From a virus: a stretch of DNA of 64,000 nucleotides. Position numbers and translations under genes: made by a program. Where the stretch lies: the IMG/VR virus record IMGVR_UViG_3300027784_000004. One strand, 5' to 3'. Shown here in pieces: positions 3,557 to 49,753 of this stretch. Within the stretch, counting starts at the first letter, position 1; each line of letters opens with the position of its first letter. The notes beneath the pieces are model-generated. The model did not search any database. It had not been told where the DNA came from and was given only the letters and a program-made list of their open reading frames with translations.

Positions 3557-3772
3557 TTAAAAGCCCATCAACTCTGCCATTTCATCTGCCTGTTTTCTTG
3601 CATCTTCTATCTTGTTTTCATTATATTTTGATTTAGTAATTATTTTTAAATCTTTTTTGCTATGATATTCAATTTTATAATCTTTGCGGTTGCTATATTT
3701 GCTAGGTATTTTTTTTGCTTTAATTACTATATCAACAAATCTTTTATCTTTTAATATTTTAGGGTTATACAT
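3557..3772 (-). CDS. Hypothetical early protein (start corrected to MYNPK)
   Basis: The ORF-track start lies inside the promoter repeat; RBS GAAAAGGTG precedes ATG 3772. Confidence 0.6.
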   Translation of the reverse strand: MYNPKILKDKRFVDIVIKAKKIPSKYSNRKDYKIEYHSKKDLKIITKSKYNENKIEDARKQADEMAELMGF

Positions 3773-3936
3773 TGCTATCACCTTTTCTAAGTTTTTTATT
3801 ATTACCGTTTCCCTCAACCTCTAAATATAGTATAACATACAACTTGTAAGAATGTCAACACACATTAGCTGTTAGTTATTGGTAAAAAAAATACCACTCA
3901 ATATAGAGTGGTTTTTACATTAGCTTTTAATATTTT

Positions 3937-4176
3937 TTATTTATATAATACTTCTTTAAAGCCTTGATAGTTGTAGCTACCTTCAATTATTGCTTTTGAT
4001 AGTTTTTCATAAACCTTATAAGCATCTTTCATTTCAGCAAAAGCCTTATGATTATATTCTTTTGTATTCTCGTTCATAATACCTACTGTGTAACTATCTC
4101 CACTTTGTCCAAAACTCAATTCTAAGTTACGCTCCAAGTCCTGCATATTAGCTATTGTAAAATCCATTTTTATCAA
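3937..4176 (-). CDS. Hypothetical early protein, paralog of 61889..62116
   Basis: Shared FTIA-M-D, YTVGI-NE-TKEY and DAYKV motifs. Confidence 0.7.
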   Translation of the reverse strand: MIKMDFTIANMQDLERNLELSFGQSGDSYTVGIMNENTKEYNHKAFAEMKDAYKVYEKLSKAIIEGSYNYQGFKEVLYK

Positions 4177-4840: not shown

Positions 4841-5219
4841 AGATAATGTTATATTCAGCCTTTGAGTACAATTTAGTATATATACTATCAAAGCCAAACC
4901 ATTTGCCTTGTTGGTATCTCTTTCTGCTTTCCTCACCCTTTGTAGCTTGTAAAGCTTTTGCCCTTACTTTTAAGTTGTTAATATCACTTTTAGTTAACTT
5001 ATCATTTACTAGCTTATCTTTTATTTCATTTAATGCACTTATAGCGCCATTATAAAATTCGATATTATCTAAAACTCTTTCTAGTCCATACCCTTTAGCA
5101 ACTTCTTTTTTAACTTCTTCCTTATATAATTTATTATCAATTTTACTTATTTCCTCATTTATCTCCTGTGCCTTTTTATTTACATTATCTTTTAGGTTAA
5201 TAGTTAACATCTGCATCAC
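4833..5219 (-). CDS. Hypothetical early protein
   Basis: ORF after a repeat promoter. Confidence 0.65.
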   Translation of the reverse strand: MMQMLTINLKDNVNKKAQEINEEISKIDNKLYKEEVKKEVAKGYGLERVLDNIEFYNGAISALNEIKDKLVNDKLTKSDINNLKVRAKALQATKGEESRKRYQQGKWFGFDSIYTKLYSKAEYNIIYA

Positions 5220-7119: not shown

Positions 7120-7533
7120 TTGAAAAAAATGGGATTAAATCAGGAAGCGGTTGACTATTTTCACGAAAATAAAGAGTTCACTTATAGTGATTCTTTTGTA
7201 AAAAGGGTAAAAGGTTTGAGGAAAGAACACGATATTTCACAAATAAAACTTGCTGAACTTCTAGGCAAATCTAATGGTGCTATTGGACATTGGGAAACTG
7301 GGAGGCGTGACCCCTCTCTTGAAACTTTAATACAGATGTGCAAGATTTTTAATTGTAGTTTGGATTATCTTTTTGGCTTATCTAATATTAGAAGGTATGA
7401 AGAAAGCCACAAATATATGCAAAGAGAAATGTATAAAGTAGGTATATTAAAAGATGGAAATATTGATAAGAAAGCTGTAGATGATTTTGTTAAAAAATTT
7501 GACTTAGTAAAGCAAATTGCTAGTGGAGGTTAA
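7120..7533 (+). CDS. XRE-family HTH regulator (candidate immunity repressor)
   Basis: LRKEHDISQIKLAELLGKSNGAIGHWETGRRDP HTH; first gene of the only plus-strand operon. Confidence 0.85.
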   Translation: MKKMGLNQEAVDYFHENKEFTYSDSFVKRVKGLRKEHDISQIKLAELLGKSNGAIGHWETGRRDPSLETLIQMCKIFNCSLDYLFGLSNIRRYEESHKYMQREMYKVGILKDGNIDKKAVDDFVKKFDLVKQIASGG

Positions 7534-7535: not shown

Positions 7536-8297
7536 ATGATTATATCTTTAGTAAATCAAAAAGGTGGCGTTACTAAAACCACTTCTGCTATCAATATAGG
7601 TGCAAGCCTATCTTTTCTTGGTCATAGGGTGCTTTTAGTTGACCTTGACCCTCAAAGCAACTGTACAAGTGGTGTAGGCTTTAATAGTGAAGGTGAAAAT
7701 AATATTTTTGATGTTTTAACTTTTAACAAAGATATAAATAGTTGTATTCATGAAACGGGTTATAAAAACTTATATATATTACCTTCTATTGATAGATTAG
7801 CTAATGTAGAACAAATATTAGTTAATGAAATGGATAGAGAAAGAATTTTAAGAAATGAACTTAAAAAAATAGAAAATGATTATGATTTTATATTCTTAGA
7901 TTGTCCACCTTCTTTAGGCTTAATAACATTAAATGCTTTAGTAGCAAGTGATAAACTATTAATACCTATGCTACCAAAACTATTTGCTTTTGAGGGTTTA
8001 ACACTACTTTTAAACACTTATAAAAAAGTGAAAATAAAGATTAATAAAGATTTAGATATATTAGGCTCTTTCTTTTGCTATGTAGATAAGCGCACTAATA
8101 TAGAAGAATATCGACAAGAATTAAAAGATATTTTTAAAGATAAATTTTTTGATAGTATCGTATATCAATATAAACATATCGCTGATTCACAAGAAGAAGG
8201 TACGCCTTTATGCTACCATAACAGAAGTTCAAAAGGTTCTCGTGAATACTTTAACCTTGCAAAGGAGATTTTAGAACATGCCCAAACAAAAGAATAA
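7536..8297 (+). CDS. parA: ParA/Soj-family partition ATPase
   Basis: Deviant Walker A NQKGGVTKTTS, VDLDPQSN, DFIFLDCPP. Confidence 0.95.
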   Translation: MIISLVNQKGGVTKTTSAINIGASLSFLGHRVLLVDLDPQSNCTSGVGFNSEGENNIFDVLTFNKDINSCIHETGYKNLYILPSIDRLANVEQILVNEMDRERILRNELKKIENDYDFIFLDCPPSLGLITLNALVASDKLLIPMLPKLFAFEGLTLLLNTYKKVKIKINKDLDILGSFFCYVDKRTNIEEYRQELKDIFKDKFFDSIVYQYKHIADSQEEGTPLCYHNRSSKGSREYFNLAKEILEHAQTKE

Positions 8298-8766
8298 TAA
8301 GTCAAGCAAGCTTGCAAAAAAATCATTAGGTATCCTTGATAGTTTAGAAGAAACTATTGCTGATAAAAGACAAGCAGAAGAAAGCAATGAGGATATTTTT
8401 TTAGATGATAATGTTAACACTAACAATAATGATAATGATACTGTTAACACAAAAGCTAACAATAATACTAATGCTAAAGCTAACAAGAAAGCTAACACAA
8501 AAGCTAAAGTTAACACTAATGCTAATGTTAATAAAAAAGATGCAAATATTAACAAAAATAATTCAGACAATGACAGCCTAAATGATAGCTTTAAAATTAC
8601 TATTGCTGATAAAACACAAAAAGAAGAAACTAAGCTTAAAGGTATATATCTAAAGCTTACTACTATTGAAAAGGTTGAAATATTAAGCAAGAAAACTGGA
8701 CAATCTCAAAGTTATATAATAGATGAAATACTACAAAAAGCTTTAGAAAGGATTGATGTGAAATGA
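8278..8766 (+). CDS. Putative centromere-binding partner with C-terminal ribbon-helix-helix and an Asn/Ala/Lys-rich linker
   Basis: Overlaps parA; C-terminal KGIYLKLTTIEKVEILSKKTGQSQSYIIDEILQKAL fits an RHH pattern. Confidence 0.65.
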   Translation: MPKQKNNKSSKLAKKSLGILDSLEETIADKRQAEESNEDIFLDDNVNTNNNDNDTVNTKANNNTNAKANKKANTKAKVNTNANVNKKDANINKNNSDNDSLNDSFKITIADKTQKEETKLKGIYLKLTTIEKVEILSKKTGQSQSYIIDEILQKALERIDVK

Positions 8767-9029: not shown

Positions 9030-9264
9030 TAAATCCAAAATAGATAAATATATAGATGATAATAAAGAGGTTTATACACTAGCTGATTATAAGCAAATAG
9101 CTATTAAAATGAGTAATGGAGATACTGAAAATAAAGCTGTAAAATGGTTTGATAAAAAGATTGAAGAATCAAAAGATGGAGAAAATCAAATAGTAAAAGG
9201 TGATAAAAAAAAGATGCTGTGGTTTATAGAATCTTTTGTATGGGAACAAGAAGGCTTATCATGA
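9013..9264 (+). CDS. Hypothetical protein, paralog of 55750..55974
   Basis: TLADYKQIA...NKAVKWFDKKI; TTG start after GGTG RBS. Confidence 0.6.
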   Translation: MQKQYNKSKIDKYIDDNKEVYTLADYKQIAIKMSNGDTENKAVKWFDKKIEESKDGENQIVKGDKKKMLWFIESFVWEQEGLS

Positions 9265-9268
9265 TATT

Positions 9269-9323
9269 AAAAAAACACAAGCCCCTTAATCATACATACT
9301 TAAAAAAGGCTTGTGTTTTTTCT
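9269..9323. terminator. Bidirectional intrinsic terminator between convergent operons
   Basis: AAAAAACACAAGCC...GGCTTGTGTTTTTT. Confidence 0.8.
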
Positions 9324-9332
9324 TAAACTCTT

Positions 9333-9905
9333 TTATTTTATTAGGGTTTTATTTTTATCCCATTTTCTTTGATATTTCAAACTTCTATAAGCACCAATAC
9401 ATTCCAAATTAAACAAAACTAAGCTAGAACAATCCCAACCATATAGGTTATATTCCCATTTTTTCAATGGTAATCTTAATTCTCTAATACCACTTTCTGT
9501 AAGATAAATACCATCATAATCTTTAGCAATTTCTTCATAATTAGGATAAGTAAAAGCTTTAGGCAAATAATCTTTGTGGGAATATCCAAAACTTTCAAAA
9601 GGGTTTACTTCTGTATAATTTTTTATTAATATTACTAAATCTTCTTGCTTATCTAAAGTATAAATATTTGCATTATTTTCTAAGTTGAACAAAATAAAAT
9701 CTTCGCTTAAGCCATCAAAGCTATTTTGAATACACCACCTTTCCCATGAACAAATATATTTATCATCATTTATTATAGGTGATGCCCACAAACCGCCAAT
9801 AGGTTTATTTGAGCAAGGCTGATTTTTTATTTCATCAAATTTTTCTTTATCAAGTTCACCTATACCAAAAGATAAGAAATGTTCTTTGCTGTGAAAATCA
9901 TACAT
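9333..9905 (-). CDS. Conserved phage hypothetical protein
   Basis: KP.GGLWASP, YDGIYLT and LYGWDCSS motifs. Confidence 0.65.
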   Translation of the reverse strand: MYDFHSKEHFLSFGIGELDKEKFDEIKNQPCSNKPIGGLWASPIINDDKYICSWERWCIQNSFDGLSEDFILFNLENNANIYTLDKQEDLVILIKNYTEVNPFESFGYSHKDYLPKAFTYPNYEEIAKDYDGIYLTESGIRELRLPLKKWEYNLYGWDCSSLVLFNLECIGAYRSLKYQRKWDKNKTLIK

Positions 9906-11440: not shown

Positions 11441-11620
11441 CTAAGCCCCTTTATAGTTATTTAAATCTATTTTGAGAACTTCTATTATATGATTGTCTAT
11501 GTATTGAGATAGTGCAAGCACTCTTTTTGACTTAAACCCTTCTTTAATAACAACATCATTAAGCCTTACTTTTAAAAACTCAATATCTTCTTCAATTATA
11601 TCAACAATAGAATCGCCCAT
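11441..11620 (-). CDS. Spo0E-like aspartyl-phosphate phosphatase (59 aa)
   Basis: Hand-translated MGDSIVDIIEEDIEFLKVRLNDVVIKEGFKSKRVLALSQYIDNHIIEVLKIDLNNYKGA; LSQYID matches the Spo0E SQ-x-LD motif; RBS GAGAAGGT. Confidence 0.7.
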   Translation of the reverse strand: MGDSIVDIIEEDIEFLKVRLNDVVIKEGFKSKRVLALSQYIDNHIIEVLKIDLNNYKGA

Positions 11621-11648: not shown

Positions 11649-12026
11649 TTAATATTTATTTTTTAAGCGTTTCATAAACTCACTTACATTTTCTTCATTA
11701 TATTTTTGCTTTTGTTTTTTCTTTTTAGAATCTCTAATATTAAAATCTCTAAAAGATTTAAGAAAGCCTTCTAACTCTGCGCCTGTTAGTTGCTCTTTCA
11801 TACTATTAATCATTTCTTCATCATTAAGCAAATCATCAAATAATTCAGAAGTTTGGTCTTTGTGTATATTTATCAACTCGCTAATCAAAATATCCAATTC
11901 AAAAGGATTGATACTATCACACATAATTTTAAACCCGTTATTTTTTTTAGCTACTATCATAAACCCATCACCTGTCATTACTTCTTTTCTTCCACAATCA
12001 TCACAGTAATATTTTACCTTTTTCAT
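11649..12026 (-). CDS. Hypothetical protein with N-terminal CxxC
   Basis: YYCDDCG; start moved to MKKVK. Confidence 0.55.
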   Translation of the reverse strand: MKKVKYYCDDCGRKEVMTGDGFMIVAKKNNGFKIMCDSINPFELDILISELINIHKDQTSELFDDLLNDEEMINSMKEQLTGAELEGFLKSFRDFNIRDSKKKKQKQKYNEENVSEFMKRLKNKY

Positions 12027-12229
12027 GATATACAAACCCTTCCATTTTTTATTTTCTAACAAGATGTAAGCAACCAGCTTAAAAAAACACGATATTTCCT
12101 ATAATGCATAATTTATGCAATAAAATGCTTACAAATCGTTAAAATGGTTCTTCTTAGCAAGAATTATTGATAAAAACTACGCAAAACAAACCTTTTGCGC
12201 ATATACTACATTTTTCTGCAATTTTCTTG

Positions 12230-12565
12230 CTAAATATTCTCTTTTTCTCTTATCATTGCCTTTACTTTCTCAATTTCTTCTTCTCTAGGCTTTATATTGC
12301 TTTTAATGTATTTAAATTTCAAATAAACCCTATTTGCAAAATAAATGTTAGTTATTGCTAAAGATAAGTAAAAAAATCCTGATAGTATCGAATTGCTCAA
12401 AAATTCATTAATTGCTACAATACTTACAAAAAATATAACTAATGCAGAAAAGCCCAAACTTATATAAGTATTTCTAACAGAATTTTTTGCCCCTTCATTA
12501 ATTTCTTCCAACATCTTCAACCTATCTTCTAAATTAGTAATCTCATATTTTTCTAATTTATTCAC
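12230..12565 (-). CDS. Two-TM membrane protein (paralog 1)
   Basis: Two hydrophobic segments between charged coils. Confidence 0.7.
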   Translation of the reverse strand: MNKLEKYEITNLEDRLKMLEEINEGAKNSVRNTYISLGFSALVIFFVSIVAINEFLSNSILSGFFYLSLAITNIYFANRVYLKFKYIKSNIKPREEEIEKVKAMIREKENI

Positions 12566-12891
12566 CCCCCATTATTACCATCTTTTATTTCTCTTAATTT
12601 TTTAATTCTACTAATCTCTTTTTCTCTAGGCTCTATGTTTTCTATTATAGATTTTCTTTCCAAATAAAGTTTAACCCCATAATAAGTGTTTAGTATTGTT
12701 ACAAATAAGAAAAAAACTCCTGTTATTAATGAACTATCTTTAAAACTTATTATTGAAGTAAAAACTGTAACAGGTGTAACTATAGTTGATAGCAAAATAC
12801 AATAAAAAGTTTTCTTTGATACTTCTTTTGCTCTTTCATTTAATTGTATCAAAACTTTTAATCTATCATCTAAATTATCCACATTAAACAA
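12562..12891 (-). CDS. Two-TM membrane protein (paralog 2)
   Basis: L(E/D)DRLK.L...NE.AK and NI.PRE.EI shared with the neighbour. Confidence 0.7.
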   Translation of the reverse strand: MFNVDNLDDRLKVLIQLNERAKEVSKKTFYCILLSTIVTPVTVFTSIISFKDSSLITGVFFLFVTILNTYYGVKLYLERKSIIENIEPREKEISRIKKLREIKDGNNGG

Positions 12892-12912
12892 ATCATCAAT
12901 TCTTTTAATTTC

Positions 12913-13407
12913 TTATTCCCCCTTATTATTCTTCCAAGGCTCAAGAAACTTATTTAAATCTACAATTAAACACCTTACTTCATCATTCCAATTTGCAATG
13001 TATCTTTTAGTATCACTAGAAATCATAGTTTCTAATCTACTTATAACAGTAGGCGCACTAAAAAAACGTGCATTACTACCGCTGTTTTGCTTACTAGGTT
13101 TATTTAATACTATACTACCATTTATTGAGTCTTCTAGCGGTTTAATAGCTAGTAAGCCTTTAAAAATATCTATTCCAACTTGTACTGCAATAAATTCTTT
13201 TGCATTTATATTTCTATGTATTAGGCGCATTGCATCTGAATTAATATAAAAGTTTGTAGTTTTAAGTGGTGATATAGTTACAAAGGGAAAACCGCTTTTT
13301 AAACCTTTACCGTTTTCTATCCATTCAAAATTGTACTTTGTAGGTTCATCACCTTCCCAATCAAATTTAAAATCATCTAGTTTTTTAACTTCCATTATAT
13401 AATTCAT
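12913..13407 (-). CDS. Hypothetical beta-rich protein, 3-member paralog family
   Basis: FYI...AM, VGID....LAIKP and LIVDL motifs. Confidence 0.65.
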   Translation of the reverse strand: MNYIMEVKKLDDFKFDWEGDEPTKYNFEWIENGKGLKSGFPFVTISPLKTTNFYINSDAMRLIHRNINAKEFIAVQVGIDIFKGLLAIKPLEDSINGSIVLNKPSKQNSGSNARFFSAPTVISRLETMISSDTKRYIANWNDEVRCLIVDLNKFLEPWKNNKGE

Positions 13408-13429
13408 TACCCCCCTTAAAGTATTTCTA

Positions 13430-13840
13430 TTAGTTTTTCTCTTTTAAATCTACTACTAAACATTCATACTTAGTATTAAATTTAGCCTTGTATCTATTAC
13501 CATCATCTTCTGTATTTAAAAATGGTTCTATAGTTTCATATAATGTATTAGAGGTAAAACATTTAGAATTAGACTTGCTACCGCCTTTACTTAGCTTATA
13601 AGTTTTGCCATTTATATCATCACCTAAATAGGGTTTAATTGCTAGCATCTTTTTTTCTTTATCTAAGCCTACCTTTATATATGTAATATCATCTTCCTTA
13701 AAGTTATATTCTAATAATTCCATAGCTATTGATGATAAATAAAACCTATTGTTGCCATTTGTGTTATTTATAGACAAAAAGGCTTGTCCTGTTTGACAAC
13801 TATTTTTATAGTCTTTAACCCAATCAAATTGATAACTCAA
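13430..13840 (-). CDS. Hypothetical beta-rich protein, same family
   Basis: Same motifs as 12913..13407 and 52546..52962. Confidence 0.65.
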   Translation of the reverse strand: MSYQFDWVKDYKNSCQTGQAFLSINNTNGNNRFYLSSIAMELLEYNFKEDDITYIKVGLDKEKKMLAIKPYLGDDINGKTYKLSKGGSKSNSKCFTSNTLYETIEPFLNTEDDGNRYKAKFNTKYECLVVDLKEKN

Positions 13841-13930
13841 TTAAAAACCCCCCACTTGTATTAATTTTTTAGCTTATACATACTATTTCTTTAATTGTTG
13901 TATTATTCCTGCTTAAATTTTTACTTTTTG

Positions 13931-14251
13931 TTAGTTTTTTTTCATAGTTGTTACTTCTTTACTATATCTTTGATTAATTACTTCCATTTCACATTTTATC
14001 TTATTTAGTCTAATCTCTATATCTTTTGTTTTTAATTGTTCCATTCCCCTATAACTTGCAAAACCCTGCCATTTTTCAATTAATTGTTCTATTCTTTTTA
14101 TATCTTTTAATGCATCTGTATCTTCAAAAACTTTGTATGGTTTAGGCTCTAAATTCTCATAACCGCCTACGCTTTGAGGACAAATATCTTCTCTGCCTTT
14201 ATTGCAACCACCAAATATATCTTCATATTCACAAAAAGCACTATAACACAT
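13931..14251 (-). CDS. Hypothetical protein with Cys-rich N-terminus
   Basis: ORF after a degenerate repeat promoter. Confidence 0.6.
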   Translation of the reverse strand: MCYSAFCEYEDIFGGCNKGREDICPQSVGGYENLEPKPYKVFEDTDALKDIKRIEQLIEKWQGFASYRGMEQLKTKDIEIRLNKIKCEMEVINQRYSKEVTTMKKN

Positions 14252-14273
14252 AATAACAACCCCTTAATATTAA

Positions 14274-14329
14274 TTATCATTTCCCTCTTGTATTTACATT
14301 TTATCATACTTCTTGTAAGAATATCAAGC
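14274..14329 (-). promoter_or_regulatory. Degenerate copy of the repeat promoter
   Basis: TTGATA-TTCTTACAAGAAGTATGA-TAAAAT followed by GAGGGAAATGATAA. Confidence 0.7.
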
Positions 14330-14357
14330 AAATAATAATGGTATATTATACTATATG

Positions 14358-14912
14358 TTAATGTGCTTTTATCTTTAATCTTACTTTTTTACTTGCTCTT
14401 TTTAATATCCTGCATACATAGCTTTGAGTAATATTTATTTCTTTTGCTATTTCCCTCTGATTCTTATTTTCAAAAAAAGATTTAATGAAAATTATTTTTT
14501 CTCTATCAGTTAACTCTTTTTCAATTATTTCTTTTACGCTTATCATATCATCAACAATAATAGTTTTATCATCTACTTCTAATTTTTCAATTAAATCTCT
14601 ATGATAAACTTCAACGCCAGTATCATCATAACTAATAAGCATATCTGTAAAAGTATTGCATCTTTGCTGTAACTTAGATTCACTTTTTCTTAATTCCATT
14701 TTAATTTCATTATCAATACATACACTTGCAAAAGTTATAAATTTTAACCCTCTGCTAAAGTCAAAATTAACACCAGCTTTAGTAATGCCAACATAACATA
14801 ATTGTAAAAGTTCTTCATTGTCTAAGCTAGTATTAAGGGTTTTCCATTTATTAAGTTTGAAGTATATAAAATTATAATTATCTTCAATCAATTTTTTTCT
14901 TCTTTCATTCAT
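14358..14912 (-). CDS. Sporulation-type sigma factor (SigE/SigK-like, no pro-sequence)
   Basis: Region 2 KFITFASVCIDNEIKMELRK; region 4 QREIAKEINITQSYVCRILKRA. Confidence 0.85.
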   Translation of the reverse strand: MNERRKKLIEDNYNFIYFKLNKWKTLNTSLDNEELLQLCYVGITKAGVNFDFSRGLKFITFASVCIDNEIKMELRKSESKLQQRCNTFTDMLISYDDTGVEVYHRDLIEKLEVDDKTIIVDDMISVKEIIEKELTDREKIIFIKSFFENKNQREIAKEINITQSYVCRILKRASKKVRLKIKAH

Positions 14913-15070
14913 ACTAACTTACACTTGCTTTTTTTATTTTCTTTTAGCTTATGGTTTTTGCAGTATTTTACAAATATCTCTTTATCTCTTAAAGTTCTAG
15001 GACAATAGCCTAAAGTTAATATATCTTTATCTTCTAGCCCTTTCATTATATCTATCATATTAATTATCAT
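14909..15070 (-). CDS. Small hypothetical protein (53 aa) coupled between spoIIID and sigma
   Basis: Hand-translated MIINMIDIMKGLEDKDILTLGYCPRT...; its stop overlaps the sigma ATG. Confidence 0.5.
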   Translation of the reverse strand: MIINMIDIMKGLEDKDILTLGYCPRTLRDKEIFVKYCKNHKLKENKKSKCKLV

Positions 15071-15072
15071 AT

Positions 15073-15357
15073 CTACATTGCCCCTTCTTTGTATAATTTC
15101 TTAGTGCTTAAACCGCCCCTTTTAACCGCTTCTGATTTATTGGTTTTTATAATATCTTTAACTTTTAGATATAAATTGTAGTCTATATTTTTAAGCTTTT
15201 TTGTTACATCTACATGTATTTGAGTTTTGCCAACGGGAAAGGCTTTTTCTGCTTGCCTTAAAGTGCATTTATTTTCTATAATATAGTTTGCTTCTTCAAT
15301 TATTCTTTTTTCTATATAAATTTCTGCTTGCTCTTTATTCATAATTAAACCAACCAC
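15073..15357 (-). CDS. spoIIID: Stage III sporulation protein D homolog
   Basis: IEEANYIIENKCTLRQAEKAFPVGKTQIHVDVTKKL...RGGLSTKKLY. Confidence 0.85.
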   Translation of the reverse strand: MVGLIMNKEQAEIYIEKRIIEEANYIIENKCTLRQAEKAFPVGKTQIHVDVTKKLKNIDYNLYLKVKDIIKTNKSEAVKRGGLSTKKLYKEGAM

Positions 15358-15454
15358 CCTATTTTAGAAAATATATTTTAATAAGAAAATAAAAAAAGCA
15401 AGCTTTTAATTAAAAAAGATTGCTCTTTGCAGGTATCTATTTTTTTATCTAAAA

Positions 15455-16030
15455 TTATTTTTCATATTCTAGCATATCATTATTTTTATCAACATATTTT
15501 TTCAAGCCAACTACAACAGCATTTGCATACTTATGCCAGTTATCTAATAGATTTTCTCTATCATCTTTTCTATCAATAAAACCATATTCTATTATTAAAG
15601 CCTGTGTTTTATCTAAAGTATTTCTATTAATAAAGAAATAATCTTTGCCACTTAAATTAGGGTGTCCTACCGTATAAATACGCCTTCTTCTCTGCCCTTT
15701 TTCTACTATACTATCAAGTAACATATCAGCAAGTACACCATCATCACGTTTTGAATATATTATCTCTGCACCTTCGCCACCGCCTGCATTTATATGGTTG
15801 CTTAATACAAAGTGTGGCTTAAAATTATTTATTCTTTTTATTCTTTCTTTAGCCCTTAAAGTTTCATCACCGTATCTAGTTAATACTACTGAAAAGTTTA
15901 GCTTTTTTAACTCTTTTAGCTGTAGATGTGATATTTTTAAAGCAAGTTCTTTTTCTTTTACATCACCATAACTAGCGCCATCATCTATGCCACCATGCCC
16001 AGCATCAATTACTACTCTAGGTTTACTCAT
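15455..16030 (-). CDS. N-acetylmuramoyl-L-alanine amidase (Amidase_3) endolysin, catalytic domain only
   Basis: VIDAGHGG, EKE, SNHINAG and IIEYGFID zinc/catalytic motifs. Confidence 0.9.
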   Translation of the reverse strand: MSKPRVVIDAGHGGIDDGASYGDVKEKELALKISHLQLKELKKLNFSVVLTRYGDETLRAKERIKRINNFKPHFVLSNHINAGGGEGAEIIYSKRDDGVLADMLLDSIVEKGQRRRRIYTVGHPNLSGKDYFFINRNTLDKTQALIIEYGFIDRKDDRENLLDNWHKYANAVVVGLKKYVDKNNDMLEYEK

Positions 16031-16049
16031 AATTAAATATAAACCCCCT

Positions 16050-17048
16050 TTAATTATTATTTTGCTCTAATGCTAAAAAATCAGTAACATCACCTTGCCC
16101 ATATGCTAAATTACTTATTACTACTGTATTAGGGTCAATATCTGTACCTACAATGGTTGCGCCTAAATTCCCTGAAGAATTTCTTGCAATTACTGATAAA
16201 TGTATTTCATCACCTTCATTTAAAAATCTTATTCTAGTAAAAGCCTGCGCTATAGTACCGCCTACACCGCTTCTATGTACTTGGTCTCTTTCAACCTCTG
16301 TACCATTTAAAAACATGCTAACCTCTAAAGCGCTATCACCTGCAACCCCTGAAAAGTGTCGCATATAATATTGAATTAGATATAAACCACTTTTATTTAT
16401 AGTAATTATTGTGTTGTCAACACCTAAATTAAAAAAATTATTATTATCAAATAAAACTTCGCCCCACTCAATTATAACATTTGCATTTTGTGGTGTATCT
16501 ATAGATGAAGTAATTCTTGCCTTGCCAGTTTCAGGCAAATTGTGGTATATTCTCAAAGCATCAAAACTAGTATGGTGGCTTATATCTCTTGTATCTTCTA
16601 TATCTTGTTGTACTATACTAACGGTTTCTAGTTGTTCAACATATACATTAGCCAGCCCTATTTCATATACTAAATTATTTTGAGTTAATAAAGGCGGTTC
16701 AGGCTCAATAGCAGGCACGCCTTCAACTACATCAATAACTACTGCCCTTACCCCTGTATTTCTATCCATTCTAGCAACTATAGTATCTATTCTATCATTA
16801 TTACCATCACCATCACTTATTGTAATATTTTCAGGGTTTTCTCTAACTCTAAAAAACCTACCTTGTACCCACCCTGTGCCTAGCTGTACATCAACACTCA
16901 TGCCAGCCCCTGCCAATACCTCTAATTCATCTTCAACGCCTGCGCAAATACCATTAAGGCTTAATACATTTAAACTTCTGCTAAACTGTGTAGCACTATA
17001 TACCCTATCGCCATCTATGCTTTCAAAAAATTTGCTTTCTACTACCAT
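16050..17048 (-). CDS. Baseplate or tail-fibre receptor-binding protein with C1q/TNF-like C-terminus
   Basis: N-terminal NDRIDTIVARMD...YEIGLANVYV structural domain; ITINKSGLYLIQY beta-sandwich; position after Tal. Confidence 0.7.
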   Translation of the reverse strand: MVVESKFFESIDGDRVYSATQFSRSLNVLSLNGICAGVEDELEVLAGAGMSVDVQLGTGWVQGRFFRVRENPENITISDGDGNNDRIDTIVARMDRNTGVRAVVIDVVEGVPAIEPEPPLLTQNNLVYEIGLANVYVEQLETVSIVQQDIEDTRDISHHTSFDALRIYHNLPETGKARITSSIDTPQNANVIIEWGEVLFDNNNFFNLGVDNTIITINKSGLYLIQYYMRHFSGVAGDSALEVSMFLNGTEVERDQVHRSGVGGTIAQAFTRIRFLNEGDEIHLSVIARNSSGNLGATIVGTDIDPNTVVISNLAYGQGDVTDFLALEQNNN

Positions 17049-17071
17049 TTTTTTAAAAGCCCCCTTCTGCT

Positions 17072-18241
17072 CTAAATTCTTTCTCTATCATCATCACCAT
17101 ATTCTAAGTCTGACCTACTTTTTATTGTTGGATATATTTCGCCTAATTGTATTTTTATTATAGGTTCACCAACCCCCGTATTTAATTCAACAGTAACCCC
17201 TACTATCTGTACATTTAAATCTAAGTTCCATTTAGTATTTCTAACTTTAACAATATTACCTATATCCCAATTTCTTCTATATTCTAAATTGACAGCTTCA
17301 TTATAATCAATTTCTATAATATTTTCTCTTTGCCTTCTTCTTAAATAACTTCTGCCCCTACTTAATAAAGCACCTTCTTCTTCTAAATTACCAGCATCTA
17401 AAAAATCTTCTTTTCTTTCAAAGCCAGCAGGTTCTTCTTCTTCTAAAAATGCTTTTTCAATTATTCTTAAATTGCCTTCGCCTTCACCGCCTGCATAAAC
17501 TAAACTTTTTGCCCCCAACTCTTTTTGTAAAAAACTTTGCGCTGTAGCAGTTTCAATTTCTACATCAAATATTATATTATCACTTACATCAATAGTTTCT
17601 ATAATATCAAATATAAAAATATTAAAATCTATATCATAGAAAGTTTCCCAGCCTATAGCGCCAGCCCTGCTTATTTCTTGTAAAGTATCTTCTAACTTTT
17701 GAAATCTGCCTTTATATGTTACAAAATCGCCACGCCCTAAATTAGGTGCAGTTGTTAGCCTAGGTATTCTTCTAGGCTCACTTGTATTTTCACCGCCATT
17801 ATAATCAAGATAATGTTTCATCACTTGCTCTGCGCTACCTTCTTGATTATCAAAAGCCCATGCATCTATTATCTGATTTTCATTTTCTTCTTGTGGTGGT
17901 TTTGGTGGTAGTATTAAATCATCATTATTAATAGGTGGTAAAATTATTCTATCTTCAAAAATACCACCAAATTGCCTACCACTTATACTTAATATTTCAC
18001 CTTCCCTACCAGTATCATCTACTTCTAATTGTTTTTGCTCTATTTGATACAATAAATTATTAAATCCTAATTCTGTAGGCAAAATAAATAAGCCAATTTC
18101 TAAAAAGTCTGAAATATATTGGTTTTGATTTATCTGTAACTCAAAAGCACCATGTGTATAAAACTGCCTTGAATAAGCAAAGCTTTCATAGTTTTCAATT
18201 TCTCCAACTAAATTACCTTCGCTATCTATAATTAAAGCCAT
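17072..18241 (-). CDS. Baseplate hub / Tal (ReqiPepy6 Gp37-like)
   Basis: YVGGEGEG-like and W.IGNIVKV motifs; follows Dit. Confidence 0.8.
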   Translation of the reverse strand: MALIIDSEGNLVGEIENYESFAYSRQFYTHGAFELQINQNQYISDFLEIGLFILPTELGFNNLLYQIEQKQLEVDDTGREGEILSISGRQFGGIFEDRIILPPINNDDLILPPKPPQEENENQIIDAWAFDNQEGSAEQVMKHYLDYNGGENTSEPRRIPRLTTAPNLGRGDFVTYKGRFQKLEDTLQEISRAGAIGWETFYDIDFNIFIFDIIETIDVSDNIIFDVEIETATAQSFLQKELGAKSLVYAGGEGEGNLRIIEKAFLEEEEPAGFERKEDFLDAGNLEEEGALLSRGRSYLRRRQRENIIEIDYNEAVNLEYRRNWDIGNIVKVRNTKWNLDLNVQIVGVTVELNTGVGEPIIKIQLGEIYPTIKSRSDLEYGDDDRERI

Positions 18242-41320: not shown

Positions 41321-41779
41321 CTAAATTTTCTTATCATCTGATATATCAGTTAATATATTAATGCTCCTTAAAAATGCATCATTACTATTATCTTTTTTTC
41401 TTATAAGTTCTTTCTTTATTACTCTTAAAATATCGCCTATAAAAGCACCTTCACTATCTTCATTTTTAAACTGTATTTTATAGTGTTTGCCAGCATATAA
41501 GCCCTGTTTTTCTAATATTTTTAATAGTTTTTCATCACTTTTTTTATCACTAACTTTTTTCTTTTTTTTAACGCCACCTATATTATTACTAATATCAATA
41601 GTTACCCTGCCTTTTAAATCTTTAATAGCCATATTAGCTAACACCCCTTTTTTAAAATCGCTAACTATTCTATCTGCTAAAGCCTGTTTAGTATCATAAC
41701 ATTCACCATAAATACCAGCCTTACATATATGCTCTATGCTGTGAATACATTTCTTTTCACAAAGCTTTAAACTCTCCAT
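41321..41779 (-). CDS. Hypothetical protein
   Basis: ORF overlapping the terL stop. Confidence 0.55.
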   Translation of the reverse strand: MESLKLCEKKCIHSIEHICKAGIYGECYDTKQALADRIVSDFKKGVLANMAIKDLKGRVTIDISNNIGGVKKKKKVSDKKSDEKLLKILEKQGLYAGKHYKIQFKNEDSEGAFIGDILRVIKKELIRKKDNSNDAFLRSINILTDISDDKKI

Positions 41780-43092
41780 CTTGATGCCTTCTTTTGTGTG
41801 CTAATAGGTGATACTTTAGGTGCATTTTTATTAAGCATTAATTCAGTTAATGCCCATACAACTGCATCAAGCCTATTAGGTGATTTTGTAGATGTAGTAG
41901 GTACATAAGTACATAGTTCATCTTCTAATTTAGCAAAATTGCCTACATGCTTAACTAAGCCACGCTCATATAAAGCAGAAATAGGCTCTGCCCTTGTTAT
42001 TTTACCCCTGCTAGCGTGAACGCTCTTATATGATACCTTGTTATCAACACCATATATTAATTCTTCTATTAAATCGCCACCGTTATTTGCTTCGCCAATT
42101 ATTCTATCTGATTCATAATTATAATAAGCATTAATAGATATTTCTGCCCATTTTTTAGGTGATACCTTGCACGTTTTATCAGCCAACACATAAGCTATAT
42201 TATCTACGCCAAGCCCTGCAACTACTATACCCGTTTCATCACTCTTTTCATTAGCAGTAACAGCAGGGTCAATAGCAACAACAACCCTTTTTAACTCAAC
42301 TAAATCATCTTCATCAACTCTATTTTTTTCAATTAAATCTCTGCTCCACAATGCCCCTTCAACATCTTCTAAAATATTAGCATAAAGTTCTTGTTCTCCA
42401 AGCCTTGTACCCTCATATCTTGCAACTATATCCCTAAAAAACTTTTCAGGTAAATTTGCCCTGTTATCATATGTGCTACCCCTAGTAATATAAGTTCCAA
42501 CTTCTTGCATTATTTTTTTTAAAACAGGTATATTTTTTGGTGTAGTGGTAATAATAGTCCTAGGATTATCACCAAGCCTAGTAGCAAGCTGTAAATTATC
42601 CCATGTTTTTTCAGGGTATTTAAAACTACATAATTCATCAACCCAAGCTAAATCAAATTCGGGTCCTCTAATTTGTTCAGGGTTTGCACCACTATAAACT
42701 GTAGCTATAGTGCCATTTGCCCATGTAAGCCTTCTTTTGCTAGGCTCATATTTTGGTCTTTTTAATGGCTCACCAACATTTAAAATACCACTCTCACCCT
42801 GTATAACAACATCCCTAGCACTAGCAGGCGTTTCCGATACTAAAGCAATACGCCTAACTTTGCCAGCTTGCGCCTGTTCATCAACAAACTCTGCGCCAGT
42901 TCTCGACTTACCAAAACCACGCCCTGCAAGTAGTAACCAAATAGCCCAATCATTGTCAGGTGCTAATTGTTCATCTCTAGCTAAAAAAGCCCAATTTCTT
43001 AAGATACCTTTTAAGTCAATTCCATATTTTTTAGCAAAAACTTCTCTACTTTCTCTATCTAATTCCATTAACTTTTCAGCAGGAGATACCAA
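41767..43092 (-). CDS. terL: Terminase large subunit
   Basis: Walker A AGRGFGKS, Walker B AWVDE, nuclease VVAIDPA...DETG, DAVVWA. Confidence 0.97.
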   Translation of the reverse strand: MVSPAEKLMELDRESREVFAKKYGIDLKGILRNWAFLARDEQLAPDNDWAIWLLLAGRGFGKSRTGAEFVDEQAQAGKVRRIALVSETPASARDVVIQGESGILNVGEPLKRPKYEPSKRRLTWANGTIATVYSGANPEQIRGPEFDLAWVDELCSFKYPEKTWDNLQLATRLGDNPRTIITTTPKNIPVLKKIMQEVGTYITRGSTYDNRANLPEKFFRDIVARYEGTRLGEQELYANILEDVEGALWSRDLIEKNRVDEDDLVELKRVVVAIDPAVTANEKSDETGIVVAGLGVDNIAYVLADKTCKVSPKKWAEISINAYYNYESDRIIGEANNGGDLIEELIYGVDNKVSYKSVHASRGKITRAEPISALYERGLVKHVGNFAKLEDELCTYVPTTSTKSPNRLDAVVWALTELMLNKNAPKVSPISTQKKASRWRV

Positions 43093-46044: not shown

Positions 46045-46160
46045 TTAGATAACCACCAGCCTTTGTTGTTTTAATGCCCTTTACGCCCTAACCTGTCCAC
46101 TCTATCTATATAAAAAAACCTTGCCCATTTCATAGGCAGGTGTAATTAAATTTAGACAAC

Positions 46161-46196
46161 AAAAAAAGCAAGCTAGCTAACCCAAGCTAGTTGCTC
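46161..46196 (-). terminator. Intrinsic terminator about 100 nt downstream of the late promoter
   Basis: AGCAACTAGC-loop-GCTAGCTTGCT-T7. Confidence 0.7.
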
Positions 46197-46267
46197 TATT
46201 TGCCAAAATCCACAAGATATATAAGGTGGAGAACCTTTATAAGAAACTTATATTTTCTTCCACTTTA

Positions 46268-46296
46268 ATAATATCATAAGCAAATTCATACGTCAA
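46268..46296 (-). promoter_or_regulatory. Candidate late promoter
   Basis: TTGACG-17bp-TATTAT with TG extension. Confidence 0.7.
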
Positions 46297-46301: not shown

Positions 46302-46790
46302 TTAAAAGTGTAGTTCCATATTACCAATTCTTGCACCTTGTATAGTTAATGGTACAAAAAAAGAGTTTCTATCTATCATTATTTTTAAATCTTCCAATGA
46401 TTGTTTCTTTAATTTCTTAGCCCAACTTTCTGTAATATCTAATTTATCAATAAATTCTTTATACTGCATACCTAGAATTACTTTATGTAATATTATATTT
46501 TTTTCAGTTTTACCTAGTGCATTAAATGAACCTATTAAAATCTTAAGCTTTAATCTTATCAGTTTAATGTTAAACTCTATAACCTGCCTTTTATCATCAC
46601 TATCTATTACGCTATCTTCTACACCGCTATAAAAGCTATTGCTGTTAGTATTAACCTTATCATGCCTATAAGTAACCGCCTGCAAATTATCTATAACTTC
46701 TACCTGCTCTAACTGCCTTTCTAAATTGTTTAACTTAGTATAACTTTTAAGCAAATTGCCATATTCTTTTTGTATATCATTAATAGTCAA
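46302..46790 (-). CDS. RinA/ArpU-like late transcriptional regulator
   Basis: C-terminal sigma4-like HTH; last gene before the packaging module. Confidence 0.7.
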   Translation of the reverse strand: MTINDIQKEYGNLLKSYTKLNNLERQLEQVEVIDNLQAVTYRHDKVNTNSNSFYSGVEDSVIDSDDKRQVIEFNIKLIRLKLKILIGSFNALGKTEKNIILHKVILGMQYKEFIDKLDITESWAKKLKKQSLEDLKIMIDRNSFFVPLTIQGARIGNMELHF

Positions 46791-47163
46791 TTTCCTTAAA
46801 TACCTCCTTCGGCTTAACTATAATAACACATCTAGGGTTTTTTCTATCAACCCTGCCCCTTAGCAATAACTCAATATTCAAAAAACTATCATCTTCTATT
46901 ACGCTAGCTTTAATCATGCCATCAAGTAAAAACTTAATATAGTTATCTAAATCACGCTTGCGCCTATCTTTAAAAAAGAAAGCTATTTCAACTAATGCTT
47001 TATCAATAGGTTTATCAGGCTTAACTTTTTGATTCATGCAGGCAACCTTTACAAGCCATTCCCATCTTAACTTATCTTGCCTATAAATATTAAAATTTCT
47101 AGAATTACCTGCATATTTATTTATTGAAGGTGGTATATCTTTTATTGTAACTTTATAATCAAC
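46780..47163 (-). CDS. rusA: RusA-family Holliday junction resolvase with a non-canonical start
   Basis: RDLDNYIKFLLDGM...IEDDS; open frame extends upstream through IPPSINKY to GTT 47163. Confidence 0.8.
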   Translation of the reverse strand, partial: VDYKVTIKDIPPSINKYAGNSRNFNIYRQDKLRWEWLVKVACMNQKVKPDKPIDKALVEIAFFFKDRRKRDLDNYIKFLLDGMIKASVIEDDSFLNIELLLRGRVDRKNPRCVIIVKPKEVFKEIDY

Positions 47164-47438
47164 TAATAAGCACCCCCTTTGCTCTTAATGTTTTTGTTTT
47201 TACTACCTTCTTCCTTTGCCTTTTTTAAAATTTTTCTCATGCCCTTCCAAATAAAATCTCTTACTTCTGATTTAGTTAACCTGTACTTTTCGCCTATTTC
47301 CTCTAAAGTAACTTCTTTACAAGCACCATATTCTTTCATTAATTGCCATTCAGTTTCTGTTAAAAATTCAGGCTTTTCAGCAATTAACTTAACAGCTTGT
47401 ACTGAAAACTTTTTAACTTTACCCATTCTTCCACCCAT
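47163..47438 (-). CDS. Sigma70 region-4 HTH protein
   Basis: LTETE...TLEEIGEKYRLTKSEVR. Confidence 0.75.
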   Translation of the reverse strand: MGGRMGKVKKFSVQAVKLIAEKPEFLTETEWQLMKEYGACKEVTLEEIGEKYRLTKSEVRDFIWKGMRKILKKAKEEGSKNKNIKSKGGAY

Positions 47439-49444: not shown

Positions 49445-49669
49445 TTATAGTTCCCAATTATCTATAACGCTAGCCATAGTAGTCCTAGTATCAATATAAC
49501 CATCTTTTAATATAATAAAGATTTTGCCAACTTGCCATGCATAACCCTCTATAATTTCTTTACCCTCAAATTCAACATTATATATATTATGGTTGCTTAC
49601 CTTATCTTCTCTTTCTAAAAATTTTACCGCCCTAGCCTTAACTTCATTTACACAAGTGATAGATGTCAT
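49445..49669 (-). CDS. Hypothetical protein (start corrected to MTSIT)
   Basis: The ORF-track start lies in the repeat leader; RBS AAGGGGTG. Confidence 0.6.
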   Translation of the reverse strand: MTSITCVNEVKARAVKFLEREDKVSNHNIYNVEFEGKEIIEGYAWQVGKIFIILKDGYIDTRTTMASVIDNWEL

Positions 49670-49695
49670 TTTTACTTCACCCCTTATAAGCTTTA

Positions 49696-49753
49696 TTATC
49701 GTTTCCCTCAACCTCAAATATAGTATATCATACTACTTGTAAGAATGTAAAGC
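49696..49753 (-). promoter_or_regulatory. Dispersed copy of the repeat promoter
   Basis: TTTACA-TTCTTACAAGTAGTATGA-TATACT plus GAGGTTGAGGGAAACGATAA. Confidence 0.9.

What the first reader, a model, noticed from the sequence alone, without database searches (positions are those of the whole stretch)
14358..16030. Mother-cell-like module: amidase, SpoIIID, small ORF and pro-less SigE/SigK-like sigma
Seen: four co-directional genes at the end of the late region; the sigma factor lacks an N-terminal pro-peptide. Known: SpoIIID and SigE/SigK run the mother-cell programme, host pro-sigmas need proteolysis, and SigK drives mother-cell lysis amidases. Inference: a checkpoint-independent circuit that mimics or derails late sporulation or drives holin-free lysis. 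With the Spo0E-like gene, the phage touches both entry and late stages of sporulation.
Basis: partly seen in the sequence, partly recalled or inferred. Interest (0 to 1): 0.72.

Follow-up and report, generated by a model that had tools for sequence, protein, structure and literature searches.

The report
Phage SpoIIID plus sigma-E/K-like operon
A salt-lake phage carries, just after its ordinary cell-wall-cutting lysis enzyme, a small operon that pairs copies of two bacterial spore-mother-cell regulators (a SpoIIID-like DNA binder and a short sigma factor related to SigE/SigK). The same pairing recurs in several unrelated phages, but what it controls is untested.

Summary
Four co-directional minus-strand genes lie at 14358-16030: an Amidase_3 enzyme (191 aa), a SpoIIID-like protein (89 aa), a 53-aa ORF with no family, and a 184-aa sigma factor.

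The sigma lacks the pro-sequence and also region 1.2. It is not SigE or SigK. It scores far below both curated cut-offs, AU tests reject membership (p 0.008 for SigK, 0.002 for SigE), and it sits in a separate, well-supported clade of short phage-borne sigmas that is sister to SigE+SigK. It keeps the SigE/K-type region 2.4 and has the SigE-type glutamine at the -35 specificity position.

The amidase is an ordinary single-domain endolysin at the end of the tail genes. Two conserved 2-TM holin candidates exist, so holin-free lysis is unsupported.

The new result is the pairing. SpoIIID-like plus this sigma type recurs in a 44%-identical relative with the same synteny (including Spo0E-like and ParA/repressor genes) and in at least two further phage lineages.

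No SigE/K-type promoters are enriched in the phage. Its late operon has a sigma-A promoter followed by tandem terminators. I favour host sporulation interference (0.42) over a phage-internal switch (0.35).

Novelty: a new variant of known phage sporulation-like genes. The scan returned no matching earlier finding on other DNA.

The parts
15455..16030 (-). Single-domain N-acetylmuramoyl-L-alanine amidase (191 aa). Probable endolysin and last gene of the virion/late block. It has no wall-binding domain, signal peptide or TM segment.
   Evidence: PF01520 E 7e-28. phrog_435 endolysin E 8e-30. CwlD equivalog 64.6 bits against cut-off 221.55. Best PDB matches are the Cwp6 amidase domain and CwlV. 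50.6% identical to the amidase at the same place in L004.
15391..15430 (-). Weak AT-rich hairpin followed by a run of seven T between the amidase and spoIIID-like genes. At best a leaky terminator.
   Evidence: Sequence. Fold -16.3 kcal/mol, z -1.36. Not called by the terminator scan.
15073..15342 (-). SpoIIID-like helix-turn-helix protein (89 aa).
   Evidence: PF12116 80.7 bits. TIGR02844 72.2 bits, below cut-off 111.5. phrog_11726. Gap-free alignment to B. subtilis SpoIIID 2L0K residues 4-81, with both the HTH and the C-terminal RGG..TK..YK region kept. 46-47% identical to bacterial SpoIIIDs.
14909..15070 (-). orf53: a lysine-rich 53-aa ORF with three Cys and no family. It starts 2 nt after the spoIIID-like stop and overlaps the sigma start (ATGA).
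   Evidence: No hit in Pfam, NCBIfam or PHROGs. No homologue in any fetched locus, including L004.
14358..14912 (-). Short sigma-70 family factor (184 aa) of a phage-borne clade sister to SigE+SigK.
   Evidence: Pfam r2 and r4. NCBIfam best models SigK 84.9 and SigE 58.3 bits, both far below cut-off; sigma70 superfamily 72.2 bits against cut-off 42.9. phrog_351 E 5e-26. Tree and AU tests. Alignment.
14298..14327 (-). Sigma-A-type promoter (TTGATA, 18 nt, TG-extended TAAAAT) carrying the phage's early-cassette spacer TTCTTACAAG. It starts the next transcription unit, directly after the sigma stop codon.
12230..12891 (-). Two tandem paralogous 2-TM proteins (109 and 111 aa) with charged C-terminal tails. 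These are the only holin candidates found.
   Evidence: Hydropathy scan of the called ORFs up to about 220 aa plus the 332-aa fibre gene. A protein of the same architecture lies in L004 at 9081-9386. No family hit.
11441..11620 (-). Spo0E-like protein (59 aa), in the unit downstream of the sigma gene.
   Evidence: PF09388 E 6e-8. 64.6% identical to the L004 copy.
46122..46296 (-). Entry to the late operon: a sigma-A-like promoter (TTGACG, 17 nt, TG, TATTAT) followed by two hairpin-plus-T terminators.
   Evidence: 3 terminator-like sites found against 0.4 expected. Sequence.
46302..46790 (-). orf162, directly after a RusA gene and before the late promoter. Candidate late regulator or antiterminator.
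   Evidence: Position. Weak phrog_36 'transcriptional regulator' hit, E 3e-4. RusA at 46780-47037.

Best explanation
The four genes form two functional units.

(1) The amidase is the phage's endolysin and closes the virion/late gene block.

(2) spoIIID-like, orf53 and the sigma gene form a tightly coupled regulatory operon. This phage lineage has captured the mother-cell pair of a sigma-E/K-type sigma and SpoIIID.

Proposed mechanism (inferred):
- The sigma needs no proteolytic activation. It binds host core RNA polymerase and, to judge from its region 2.4 and its glutamine at the sigma-E Q217 position, prefers sigma-E-like promoters.
- The SpoIIID-like protein keeps both DNA-binding regions of SpoIIID and modulates the same promoters, as SpoIIID does with sigma-E in the host.
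- The operon has no convincing promoter of its own and follows only a weak hairpin. It is therefore probably transcribed as the tail of the late transcript, very late in lytic growth.
- The phage's own late genes have a sigma-A promoter with an antitermination-type layout, and the phage shows no sigma-E/K-type promoters. The most likely targets are therefore host mother-cell (sigma-E-type) promoters.

On this reading the operon is an auxiliary dormancy-interference module. It would act together with the conserved Spo0E-like gene to mis-time or block sporulation in an endospore-forming host.

Shown: gene content, homology, clade placement, conserved synteny and recurrent pairing. Inferred: timing, targets and effect.
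For: Homology and architecture.

Sigma placement: it lies in a starred clade (98/91) of short phage sigmas, inside the SigE/K supergroup that is split 100/100 from SigF/G.

Promoter-recognition residues: region 2.4 reads CIDNEIKMELRK against the SigE/K form CIENEILMxLR. Region 4.2 reads ITQSY, with Q where SigE has Q217 and SigK has R. The Q/R rule is stated in PMC3789822.

Conserved synteny: L004 has amidase, SpoIIID, sigma, a 2-TM protein, Spo0E and ParA/HTH in the same order, at only 44-65% protein identity.

Recurrent pairing:
- L115: overlapping spoIIID-sigma genes.
- L151: the two genes lie 1.2 kb apart. Both L115 and L151 sigmas have CI.NE..M and SQSY motifs and fall in the same clade.
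- CP51-type Clostridium perfringens phages: the two genes lie 2.5 kb apart.
- 17 of 40 IMG/VR records that carry SpoIIID also carry a sigma-70 family gene, and 8 of 15 of those at least 90% complete do. About 13% of phage genomes overall carry one (PMC9429907).

Against a role in phage late transcription:
- The late operon starts at a sigma-A promoter followed by two terminators, after RusA and orf162.
- No sigma-E/K-type promoter lies upstream of late genes, and there is no shared non-sigma-A motif.

Precedent: phage sporulation-like sigmas reduce spore yield when expressed in B. subtilis. One is dispensable for lytic growth, and they occur only in phages of spore-formers (PMC9429907). spoIIID is listed among phage sporulation genes (PMC10294663).
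Against: No host genome, RNA data or experiment is available, so the targets are unknown.

- Relatives of the sigma sit in clearly phage-autonomous contexts: next to DNA polymerase A, dUTPase, or an amidase just upstream of the packaging genes. In L115 the pair lies in the early region after cro-like genes. Both patterns fit a phage-internal regulator.
- The sigma is very divergent from SigE and SigK (at most 35% identity) and lacks region 1.2, so it may not read host sigma-E promoters at all.
- The SpoIIID-like recognition helix differs from the bacterial consensus (GKTQIHVD against SKSTVHKD).
- In the cited work the effective phage sigmas were SigF/G-like, and two of the four tested had little effect.
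Confidence: 0.42

Rival explanations
1. Phage-internal transcription switch. The sigma redirects host RNA polymerase to a few phage promoters of unknown sequence. The SpoIIID-like protein is its co-activator, or a repressor that shuts off the roughly 13 sigma-A early promoter cassettes. Host sporulation is not a target; the proteins were merely recruited from sporulation regulators.
For: The sigma's clade is phage-borne and often sits beside replication or lysis genes: L152 and L155 next to DNA polymerase A, and L154 with an Amidase_3 gene directly upstream of the sigma and shortly before a ParB_N gene. In L115 the overlapping spoIIID-sigma pair follows the repressor/cro region, the usual place for middle or late regulators. 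All early cassettes share an invariant spacer, TTCTTACA(AG), between -35 and -10 that could be an operator. Host SpoIIID represses by binding over promoters (PMC517825).
Against: No repeated non-sigma-A promoter motif or SigE/K-type promoter was found in 64 kb. The late operon has its own sigma-A promoter and terminator layout. The operon lies at the distal end of the late block, an odd place for an activator of that block. The spacer motif is only a partial match to the SpoIIID consensus as I recall it, and it is not conserved in L004. It may equally serve the XRE repressor at 7120-7533.
Confidence: 0.35
2. The four genes are one mother-cell-lysis circuit, in which the pro-less sigma drives the amidase as SigK drives CwlC. 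This gives holin-independent lysis or derails late sporulation.
For: The four genes are adjacent and co-directional. An Amidase_3 gene directly precedes a related sigma in L154 as well. CwlC and CwlD are Amidase_3 enzymes.
Against: The amidase lies upstream of the sigma and 19 nt after the tail-fibre gene, with no promoter-like gap, so it is expressed with the late operon and not under the sigma. There is no CATA-type -10 element upstream of it. It is an ordinary endolysin domain without a secretion signal, so it needs a holin. 2-TM holin candidates are present and conserved.
Confidence: 0.03
3. Neutral or decaying passenger genes picked up from a host, with no present function.
For: The window's SpoIIID-like copy is on a long branch (0.96 changes per column) and falls below the equivalog cut-off. 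orf53 has no relatives.
Against: The frames are intact, with RBS and translational coupling. All invariant SpoIIID columns are kept. The sigma's regions 2 and 4 are intact. The same gene order is kept in L004 at 44-50% identity. The pairing arose or persists in several lineages.
Confidence: 0.05

Closest known systems
[quoted passage not shown] Schwartz, Lehmkuhl and Lennon 2022, PMC9429907.
   Same: A sigma-70 family gene in a phage whose best bacterial models are sporulation sigmas. It has no regulatory N-terminus and is suspected to act on host sporulation. SPO1 gp2.21 was likewise proposed to use SigK-like promoters.
   Different: The studied cases are mainly SigF/G-like. This one belongs to a separate clade sister to SigE+SigK. 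It is co-transcribed with a SpoIIID homologue and comes from an uncultured low-GC phage-plasmid-like element from a salt lake.
Host mother-cell pair sigma-E / SpoIIID (and sigma-K) of Bacillus and Clostridia.
   Same: A SigE/K-type region 2.4, the SigE-type Q in region 4.2, the short region 3 typical of SigE/K, and a SpoIIID fold with the HTH and the C-terminal basic region. It is also the same two-component logic of a sigma plus a small monomeric DNA binder.
   Different: There is no pro-sequence, no region 1.2 and no adjacent SpoIIGA. Both proteins score far below the equivalog cut-offs. AU tests reject SigE and SigK membership for the sigma. Here the two genes are fused into one operon, whereas host spoIIID is a separate sigma-E-dependent gene.
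Clostridium perfringens phage vB_CpeS-CP51 (NC_021325): annotated sigma factor phiCP51_0037 and SpoIIID phiCP51_0043.
   Same: A temperate siphovirus of a spore-former that carries both a 184-aa sigma and a SpoIIID homologue.
   Different: In CP51 the two genes lie 2.5 kb apart in the early/replication region. Its sigma has SigF/G-like motifs in regions 2.4 and 4.2. Its SpoIIID is only 36% identical to the window's.
Sporulation genes in gut phages (spoIIID, sigE/sigK-type KOs, cwlC/cwlD). Schwartz et al. 2023, PMC10294663.
   Same: The survey lists spoIIID, sporulation sigma factors and Amidase_3 sporulation amidases as phage-carried genes.
   Different: It is a survey of single genes. The operon pairing and its recurrence are not described there, nor in any paper my searches found.

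Membership tests
SigK (TIGR02846 / NF004471) | Score at or above the curated equivalog/subfamily cut-off | tested here: not met
   80.7 bits against 298.65, and 84.9 against 252. True SigK proteins from five Bacillota genomes score 254-357 bits; three pass the cut-off.
SigK | Falls inside the SigK clade | tested here: not met
   AU test of query plus SigK held together: p 0.008, log-likelihood 40 lower.
SigK | Arginine at the position equivalent to sigma-E Q217 (recognition of the AC -35 element) | tested here: not met
   The window has Q163 in ITQSY. All five SigK references have ISRSY. The rule is stated in PMC3789822.
SigE (TIGR02835 / NF006158) | Score at or above the curated cut-off, and placement in the SigE clade | tested here: not met
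   56.1 bits against 348.6, and 58.3 against 339. AU test p 0.002.
SigE | Glutamine at position 217, and the CIENEILM-type region 2.4 | tested here: met
   Q in ITQSY, and CIDNEIKM in region 2.4.
SigE / SigK | N-terminal pro-sequence removed by SpoIIGA or SpoIVFB | tested here: not met
   The protein starts at model position 50 (SigK) or 59 (SigE). The alignment shows that about 50-58 N-terminal residues are absent. No SpoIIGA gene is nearby.
Sigma-70 family | Regions 2 and 4 present, and superfamily model above cut-off | tested here: met
   PF04542 30.9 bits against 24; PF04545 43 bits against 24.1. TIGR02937 72.2 bits against 42.9.
Phage sporulation-like sigma factors (sense of Schwartz et al. 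2022) | A phage gene whose best TIGRFAM models are sporulation sigmas and which clusters with them in a tree | tested here: met
   Best models are SigK, SigB/F/G and SigE. It lies inside the SigE/K supergroup, 100/100. The phage context is shown.
SpoIIID (PF12116 / TIGR02844) | Pfam domain above the gathering score | tested here: met
   80.7 bits against 27, covering 78 of 82 profile positions.
SpoIIID | Equivalog score (orthologue of bacterial SpoIIID) | tested here: not met
   72.2 bits against 111.5. Bacterial SpoIIIDs score 117-147 bits.
SpoIIID | The HTH and the C-terminal basic DNA-binding region | tested here: met
   Gap-free alignment to 2L0K residues 4-81. K39, H43, D45, T47, N68, K69, E71, R75 and G76 are invariant across 9 sequences. 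Binding itself is not testable here.
CwlD / CwlC sporulation amidases | Equivalog score (CwlD), or a C-terminal SPOR domain (CwlC) | tested here: not met
   CwlD model 64.6 bits against 221.55. Only the catalytic domain is present, 191 aa.
Phage endolysin (Amidase_3 type) | Amidase_3 catalytic domain in the lysis position after the tail genes | tested here: met
   phrog_435 E 8e-30. The gene starts 19 nt after the fibre gene. The same arrangement is seen in L004.
Holin (for 12230-12891) | A small protein with 1-3 TM segments and a charged C-terminal tail, near the lysin | tested here: inconclusive
   The 109-aa protein has 2 TM segments above the hydropathy threshold and the 111-aa paralogue has 1 (its second lies by eye at about residues 56-75); both have K/E-rich tails. 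The architecture is conserved in L004. No holin family hit. They lie 2.5 kb from the amidase.

The most novel reading that the evidence does not exclude
Phages of endospore-formers have repeatedly assembled a portable 'mother-cell core' in a single operon: a processing-independent sigma-E-type sigma plus SpoIIID. A phage-plasmid could use it to switch on a mother-cell-like transcription state whenever the phage chooses. It might run its lytic programme in, or convert the cell into, a terminal 'mother cell' without the host's forespore-to-mother-cell checkpoints. The Spo0E-like gene would meanwhile block normal entry into sporulation.
Probability: 0.12. Interest if true: 0.8.

Novelty: new variant of a known kind. 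Interest (0 to 1): 0.52.

Why it matters
Phage genes that resemble sporulation regulators are known, but functional work has dealt with single SigF/G-like sigmas. This finding adds three points.
- There is a distinct phage-borne clade related to the mother-cell sigmas.
- It shows repeated physical coupling to SpoIIID, the protein that partners sigma-E in the host.
- The pair is co-conserved with a Spo0E-like gene in a phage-plasmid-like element.

If the pair acts on host promoters, it would be a two-component takeover of the mother-cell line of sporulation. It would also be a compact tool for switching that regulon on without the SpoIIGA or SpoIVFB checkpoints. If it acts only on phage DNA, it is an example of a whole host regulatory pair being re-used as a phage timing device. 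Either result is directly testable with two small genes.

Tried and rejected
- DNA search of 12000-18000 against phage records: no match. The protein at 43840-45132, which I first took for the terminase, also gave none. It is a radical-SAM-like protein; the true terminase is 41767-43092.
- No whole genome is held for this window. Word-based homologue searches returned only the query itself, for the sigma and for SpoIIID.
- Genome scan with a sigma alignment: no relative above 35% identity, so no host assignment. The first alignment was too diverse to search with.
- Sequencing runs: one DNA holder (a salt-lake metagenome, probably the source) and no RNA holder listed.
- SigE/SigK consensus scans: 3 distinct intergenic SigE-like sites and 1 SigK-like site on the sense strand, none before late genes or before this operon. 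The excess of SigK-like hits on the antisense strand (17 against 3) is explained by C/G skew.
- A k-mer search for a shared non-sigma-A promoter motif found only ribosome-binding sites and A-runs.
- The spacer motif TTCTTACA of the early cassettes was not found in L004 promoters, so it could not be tied to the SpoIIID-like protein.
- SpoIIID tree: unresolved on 78 columns, with viral and bacterial copies interleaved and no donor inferred.
- Complex prediction of the sigma with orf53: no answer.
- Rfam scan of the window: nothing.
- The paper on Clostridium perfringens phage phi3626 (PMC135250) is not held.
- Caveat: some IMG/VR 'viral' SpoIIID hits are short (for example L141, L147, L148). They may be halves of a spoIIID gene split by an integrated element, as earlier scan notes describe, and genome size and host bias also confound the comparison with 13%.
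Full report
**What is there**

The window is 64 kb of a 68-kb contig. The same DNA is found in one 2012 salt-lake metagenome run, and no genome is held for it. GC content is about 29%, and nearly all genes are on the minus strand.

The contig is a tailed phage:
- large terminase at 41767-43092;
- tape-measure, Sipho_tail and Sipho_Gp37 genes;
- a fibre with a BclA_C-like end.

It also has one plus-strand block with an XRE repressor and ParA, and I saw no integrase among the proteins I scanned.

The finding's four ORFs are real:
- **Amidase, 15455-16030:** Amidase_3, E 7e-28.
- **SpoIIID-like, 15073-15342:** PF12116, 80.7 bits.
- **orf53, 14909-15070:** no family.
- **Sigma, 14358-14912:** regions 2 and 4.

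**Anatomy**

- The amidase starts 19 nt after the fibre gene.
- A 112-nt gap follows. It holds only a weak AT-rich hairpin with a T-run (z -1.36, not called as a terminator) and no convincing sigma-A promoter.
- spoIIID-like, orf53 and the sigma gene are separated by 2 nt and by an ATGA overlap.
- Directly after the sigma stop lies a sigma-A promoter. It shares the spacer TTCTTACAAG with the phage's roughly 13 early promoter-leader cassettes and starts the next unit. That unit holds a Cys-rich ORF, two paralogous ORFs, two 2-TM proteins and the Spo0E-like gene.

I therefore read the cluster as an endolysin closing the late block, followed by a three-gene regulatory operon that is probably read through from the late transcript.

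**The sigma**

Its best NCBIfam models are SigK (84.9 bits against a cut-off of 252) and SigE (58.3 against 339). The alignments start at model positions 50 and 59.

I fetched authentic SigK, SigE, SigF, SigG and SpoIIID genes from five Bacillota genomes and from annotated records. The alignment shows:
- The phage protein begins at the 'LIERNL' position, so it lacks both the pro-sequence and region 1.2.
- It has the short region 3 of SigE/K, not the long one of SigF/G.
- Region 2.4 reads CIDNEIKMELRK, against CIENEILMxLR in SigE/K.
- Region 4.2 reads ITQSY. The Q is at the sigma-E Q217 position, where sigma-K has R. That residue sets the ATA versus AC -35 preference (PMC3789822).

A full HMMER search of 1.8 billion representatives found no protein above 44% identity. 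Most top hits were 165-230 aa long, and none of the ten I tested reached a SigE or SigK cut-off.

In the careful tree:
- SigE/K-type proteins split 100/100 from SigF/G.
- True SigE and SigK form one group (87/81).
- The window's sigma falls in a separate starred clade (98/91) of 21 short sigmas.
- AU tests reject placing it with SigK (p 0.008) or with SigE (p 0.002).

Contexts of clade members are plainly viral: next to DNA polymerase A and dUTPase, next to a holin and an Amidase_2 gene, or directly after an Amidase_3 gene and shortly before a ParB_N gene. So 'pro-less SigE/K-like' is a fair description. The protein is a member of a phage sigma family, not a stolen SigE or SigK, and lack of a pro-peptide is normal for that family.

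**The SpoIIID-like protein**

It aligns without gaps to residues 4-81 of B. subtilis SpoIIID (2L0K). It keeps every column that is invariant among nine viral and bacterial copies, including the recognition helix K..H.D.T and the C-terminal NK.E...RG stretch.

It is 46-47% identical to bacterial SpoIIIDs and falls below the equivalog cut-off (72 bits against 111.5). The family tree is unresolved.

**Conservation and recurrence**

The closest sigma (P0002, 44% identity in the HMMER search; 40-42% in the later alignments) lies on a contig (L004) with the same layout. Tail genes are followed by Amidase_3 (51% identical), a small ORF, SpoIIID (47%), the sigma, a 2-TM protein, Spo0E-like (65%) and a ParA/XRE block.

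Among 47 IMG/VR loci with a SpoIIID homologue:
- L115 has overlapping spoIIID and sigma genes in its early region.
- L151 has the two genes 1.2 kb apart. Both the L115 and L151 sigmas are of the same clade and motif type.
- The CP51 group of Clostridium perfringens phages has the two genes 2.5 kb apart.

At record level, 17 of 40 SpoIIID-bearing viral records carry a sigma-70 family gene, and 8 of 15 near-complete ones do. About 13% of phage genomes overall carry one (PMC9429907). This comparison is confounded by host range and genome size. None of the 52 bacterial-genome loci with related sigmas has a SpoIIID homologue within 6 kb.

**Lysis**

The amidase is a normal endolysin domain (phrog_435; the PDB matches include Cwp6, CwlV and a germination-specific, CwlD-type amidase). 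It has no export signal.

The only membrane proteins found in the ORFs scanned are the two 2-TM proteins at 12230-12891, and their architecture is conserved in L004. Holin-free lysis is therefore not indicated.

**Targets**

The late operon is entered through a sigma-A-like promoter followed by two terminators (three terminator-like sites against 0.4 expected; two of them are these tandem minus-strand hairpins). This lies just after RusA and a 162-aa ORF with a weak regulator hit. It is a lambdoid antitermination layout that needs no phage sigma.

Scans for SigE- and SigK-type promoters and for any shared non-sigma-A motif gave nothing upstream of late genes or of the operon.

**Reading**

The pair is a conserved, functional regulatory unit. 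Two roles remain open.

- **Host sporulation interference (0.42).** I slightly favour this, for five reasons: the phage's late genes appear to be provided for; the operon sits in the distal, moron-like position; it is co-conserved with Spo0E-like; such sigmas occur only in phages of spore-formers; and they can lower spore yield.
- **Phage-internal switch (0.35).** This is supported by the clearly phage-autonomous contexts of the sigma's relatives and by the early-region position of the pair in L115.

**Literature**

Phage sporulation-like sigmas, spoIIID and sporulation amidases are known as single phage genes (PMC9429907, PMC10294663). I found no description of the SpoIIID-sigma operon pairing, or of this SigE/K-related phage clade as such. 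The scan returned no matching earlier finding on other DNA.

Noticed in passing
window 46122-46296 (-), with 46302-47037: The late operon is entered through a sigma-A-like promoter (TTGACG, 17 nt, TG, TATTAT) followed by two hairpin-plus-T terminators. This lies directly after RusA and a 162-aa ORF with a weak regulator hit. It is a lambdoid Q-like antitermination layout in a low-GC Bacillota-type phage.
   Followed up: partly
window 12230-12565 and 12562-12891 (-); L004 9081-9386: Two tandem paralogous proteins have an N-terminal coil, two TM segments and a K/E-rich tail. They match no family but are conserved in architecture in the relative. They are holin/antiholin candidates placed 2.5 kb from the endolysin, under an early-type promoter.
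   Followed up: partly
window, minus strand: TTCTTACA at 63469, 62699, 62195, 61845, 49745, 14321, 6061, 5289, 4451, 3852, 3312, 2751: Twelve sigma-A promoter-leader cassettes share an invariant spacer, TTCTTACA(AG), between -35 and -10. The motif is kept even in the diverged copies. One such promoter sits right after the sigma gene. It may be an operator for the XRE repressor or for the SpoIIID-like protein. The cassette array itself was already reported by another agent.
   Followed up: partly
window 47163-47438 (-): A 91-aa ORF with a weak sigma-70 region-4-like helix-turn-helix (PF04545, E 2e-4) lies upstream of RusA. It is a second small candidate regulator near the late-operon entry.
   Followed up: no
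L004 about 7415-7430: In the relative, a sequence fitting the SpoIIID box as I recall it (ATAGGACAAGT; WWRRACAR-Y) lies between the amidase's T-run and the orf96-spoIIID-sigma operon. This might be an autoregulation site. The window has no counterpart, and such boxes are frequent by chance in AT-rich DNA.
   Followed up: no
L154 5062-6549, with 3746-4042 and 8182-8700: Another uncultured 65-kb phage has an Amidase_3 gene directly followed by a sigma of the same clade. DUF7694 and ParB_N genes lie nearby, and both gene types also occur in the window. There is no SpoIIID in the 12.5-kb locus fetched. The amidase-sigma adjacency may itself be a recurrent feature.
   Followed up: no
L073 and L074 (Thermoanaerobacteraceae MAG, contig C8 at 99761-100084 and 49629-49982): The sigK gene of this MAG is in two halves about 50 kb apart on one contig. 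This is a skin-like intervening element.
   Followed up: no
window 12913-13407 and 13430-13840 (-): Two adjacent paralogous ORFs (164 and 136 aa) have no family hit. They sit between the Cys-rich ORF after the sigma gene and the 2-TM pair.
   Followed up: no
L115 about 4905-4925: Upstream of the overlapping spoIIID-sigma pair of this phage lies CATACAAG, with ATA 14 nt before it. This is a near sigma-E-type promoter and may mean host sigma-E control or autoregulation. It is a single instance, with a chance expectation of roughly 0.05.
   Followed up: no
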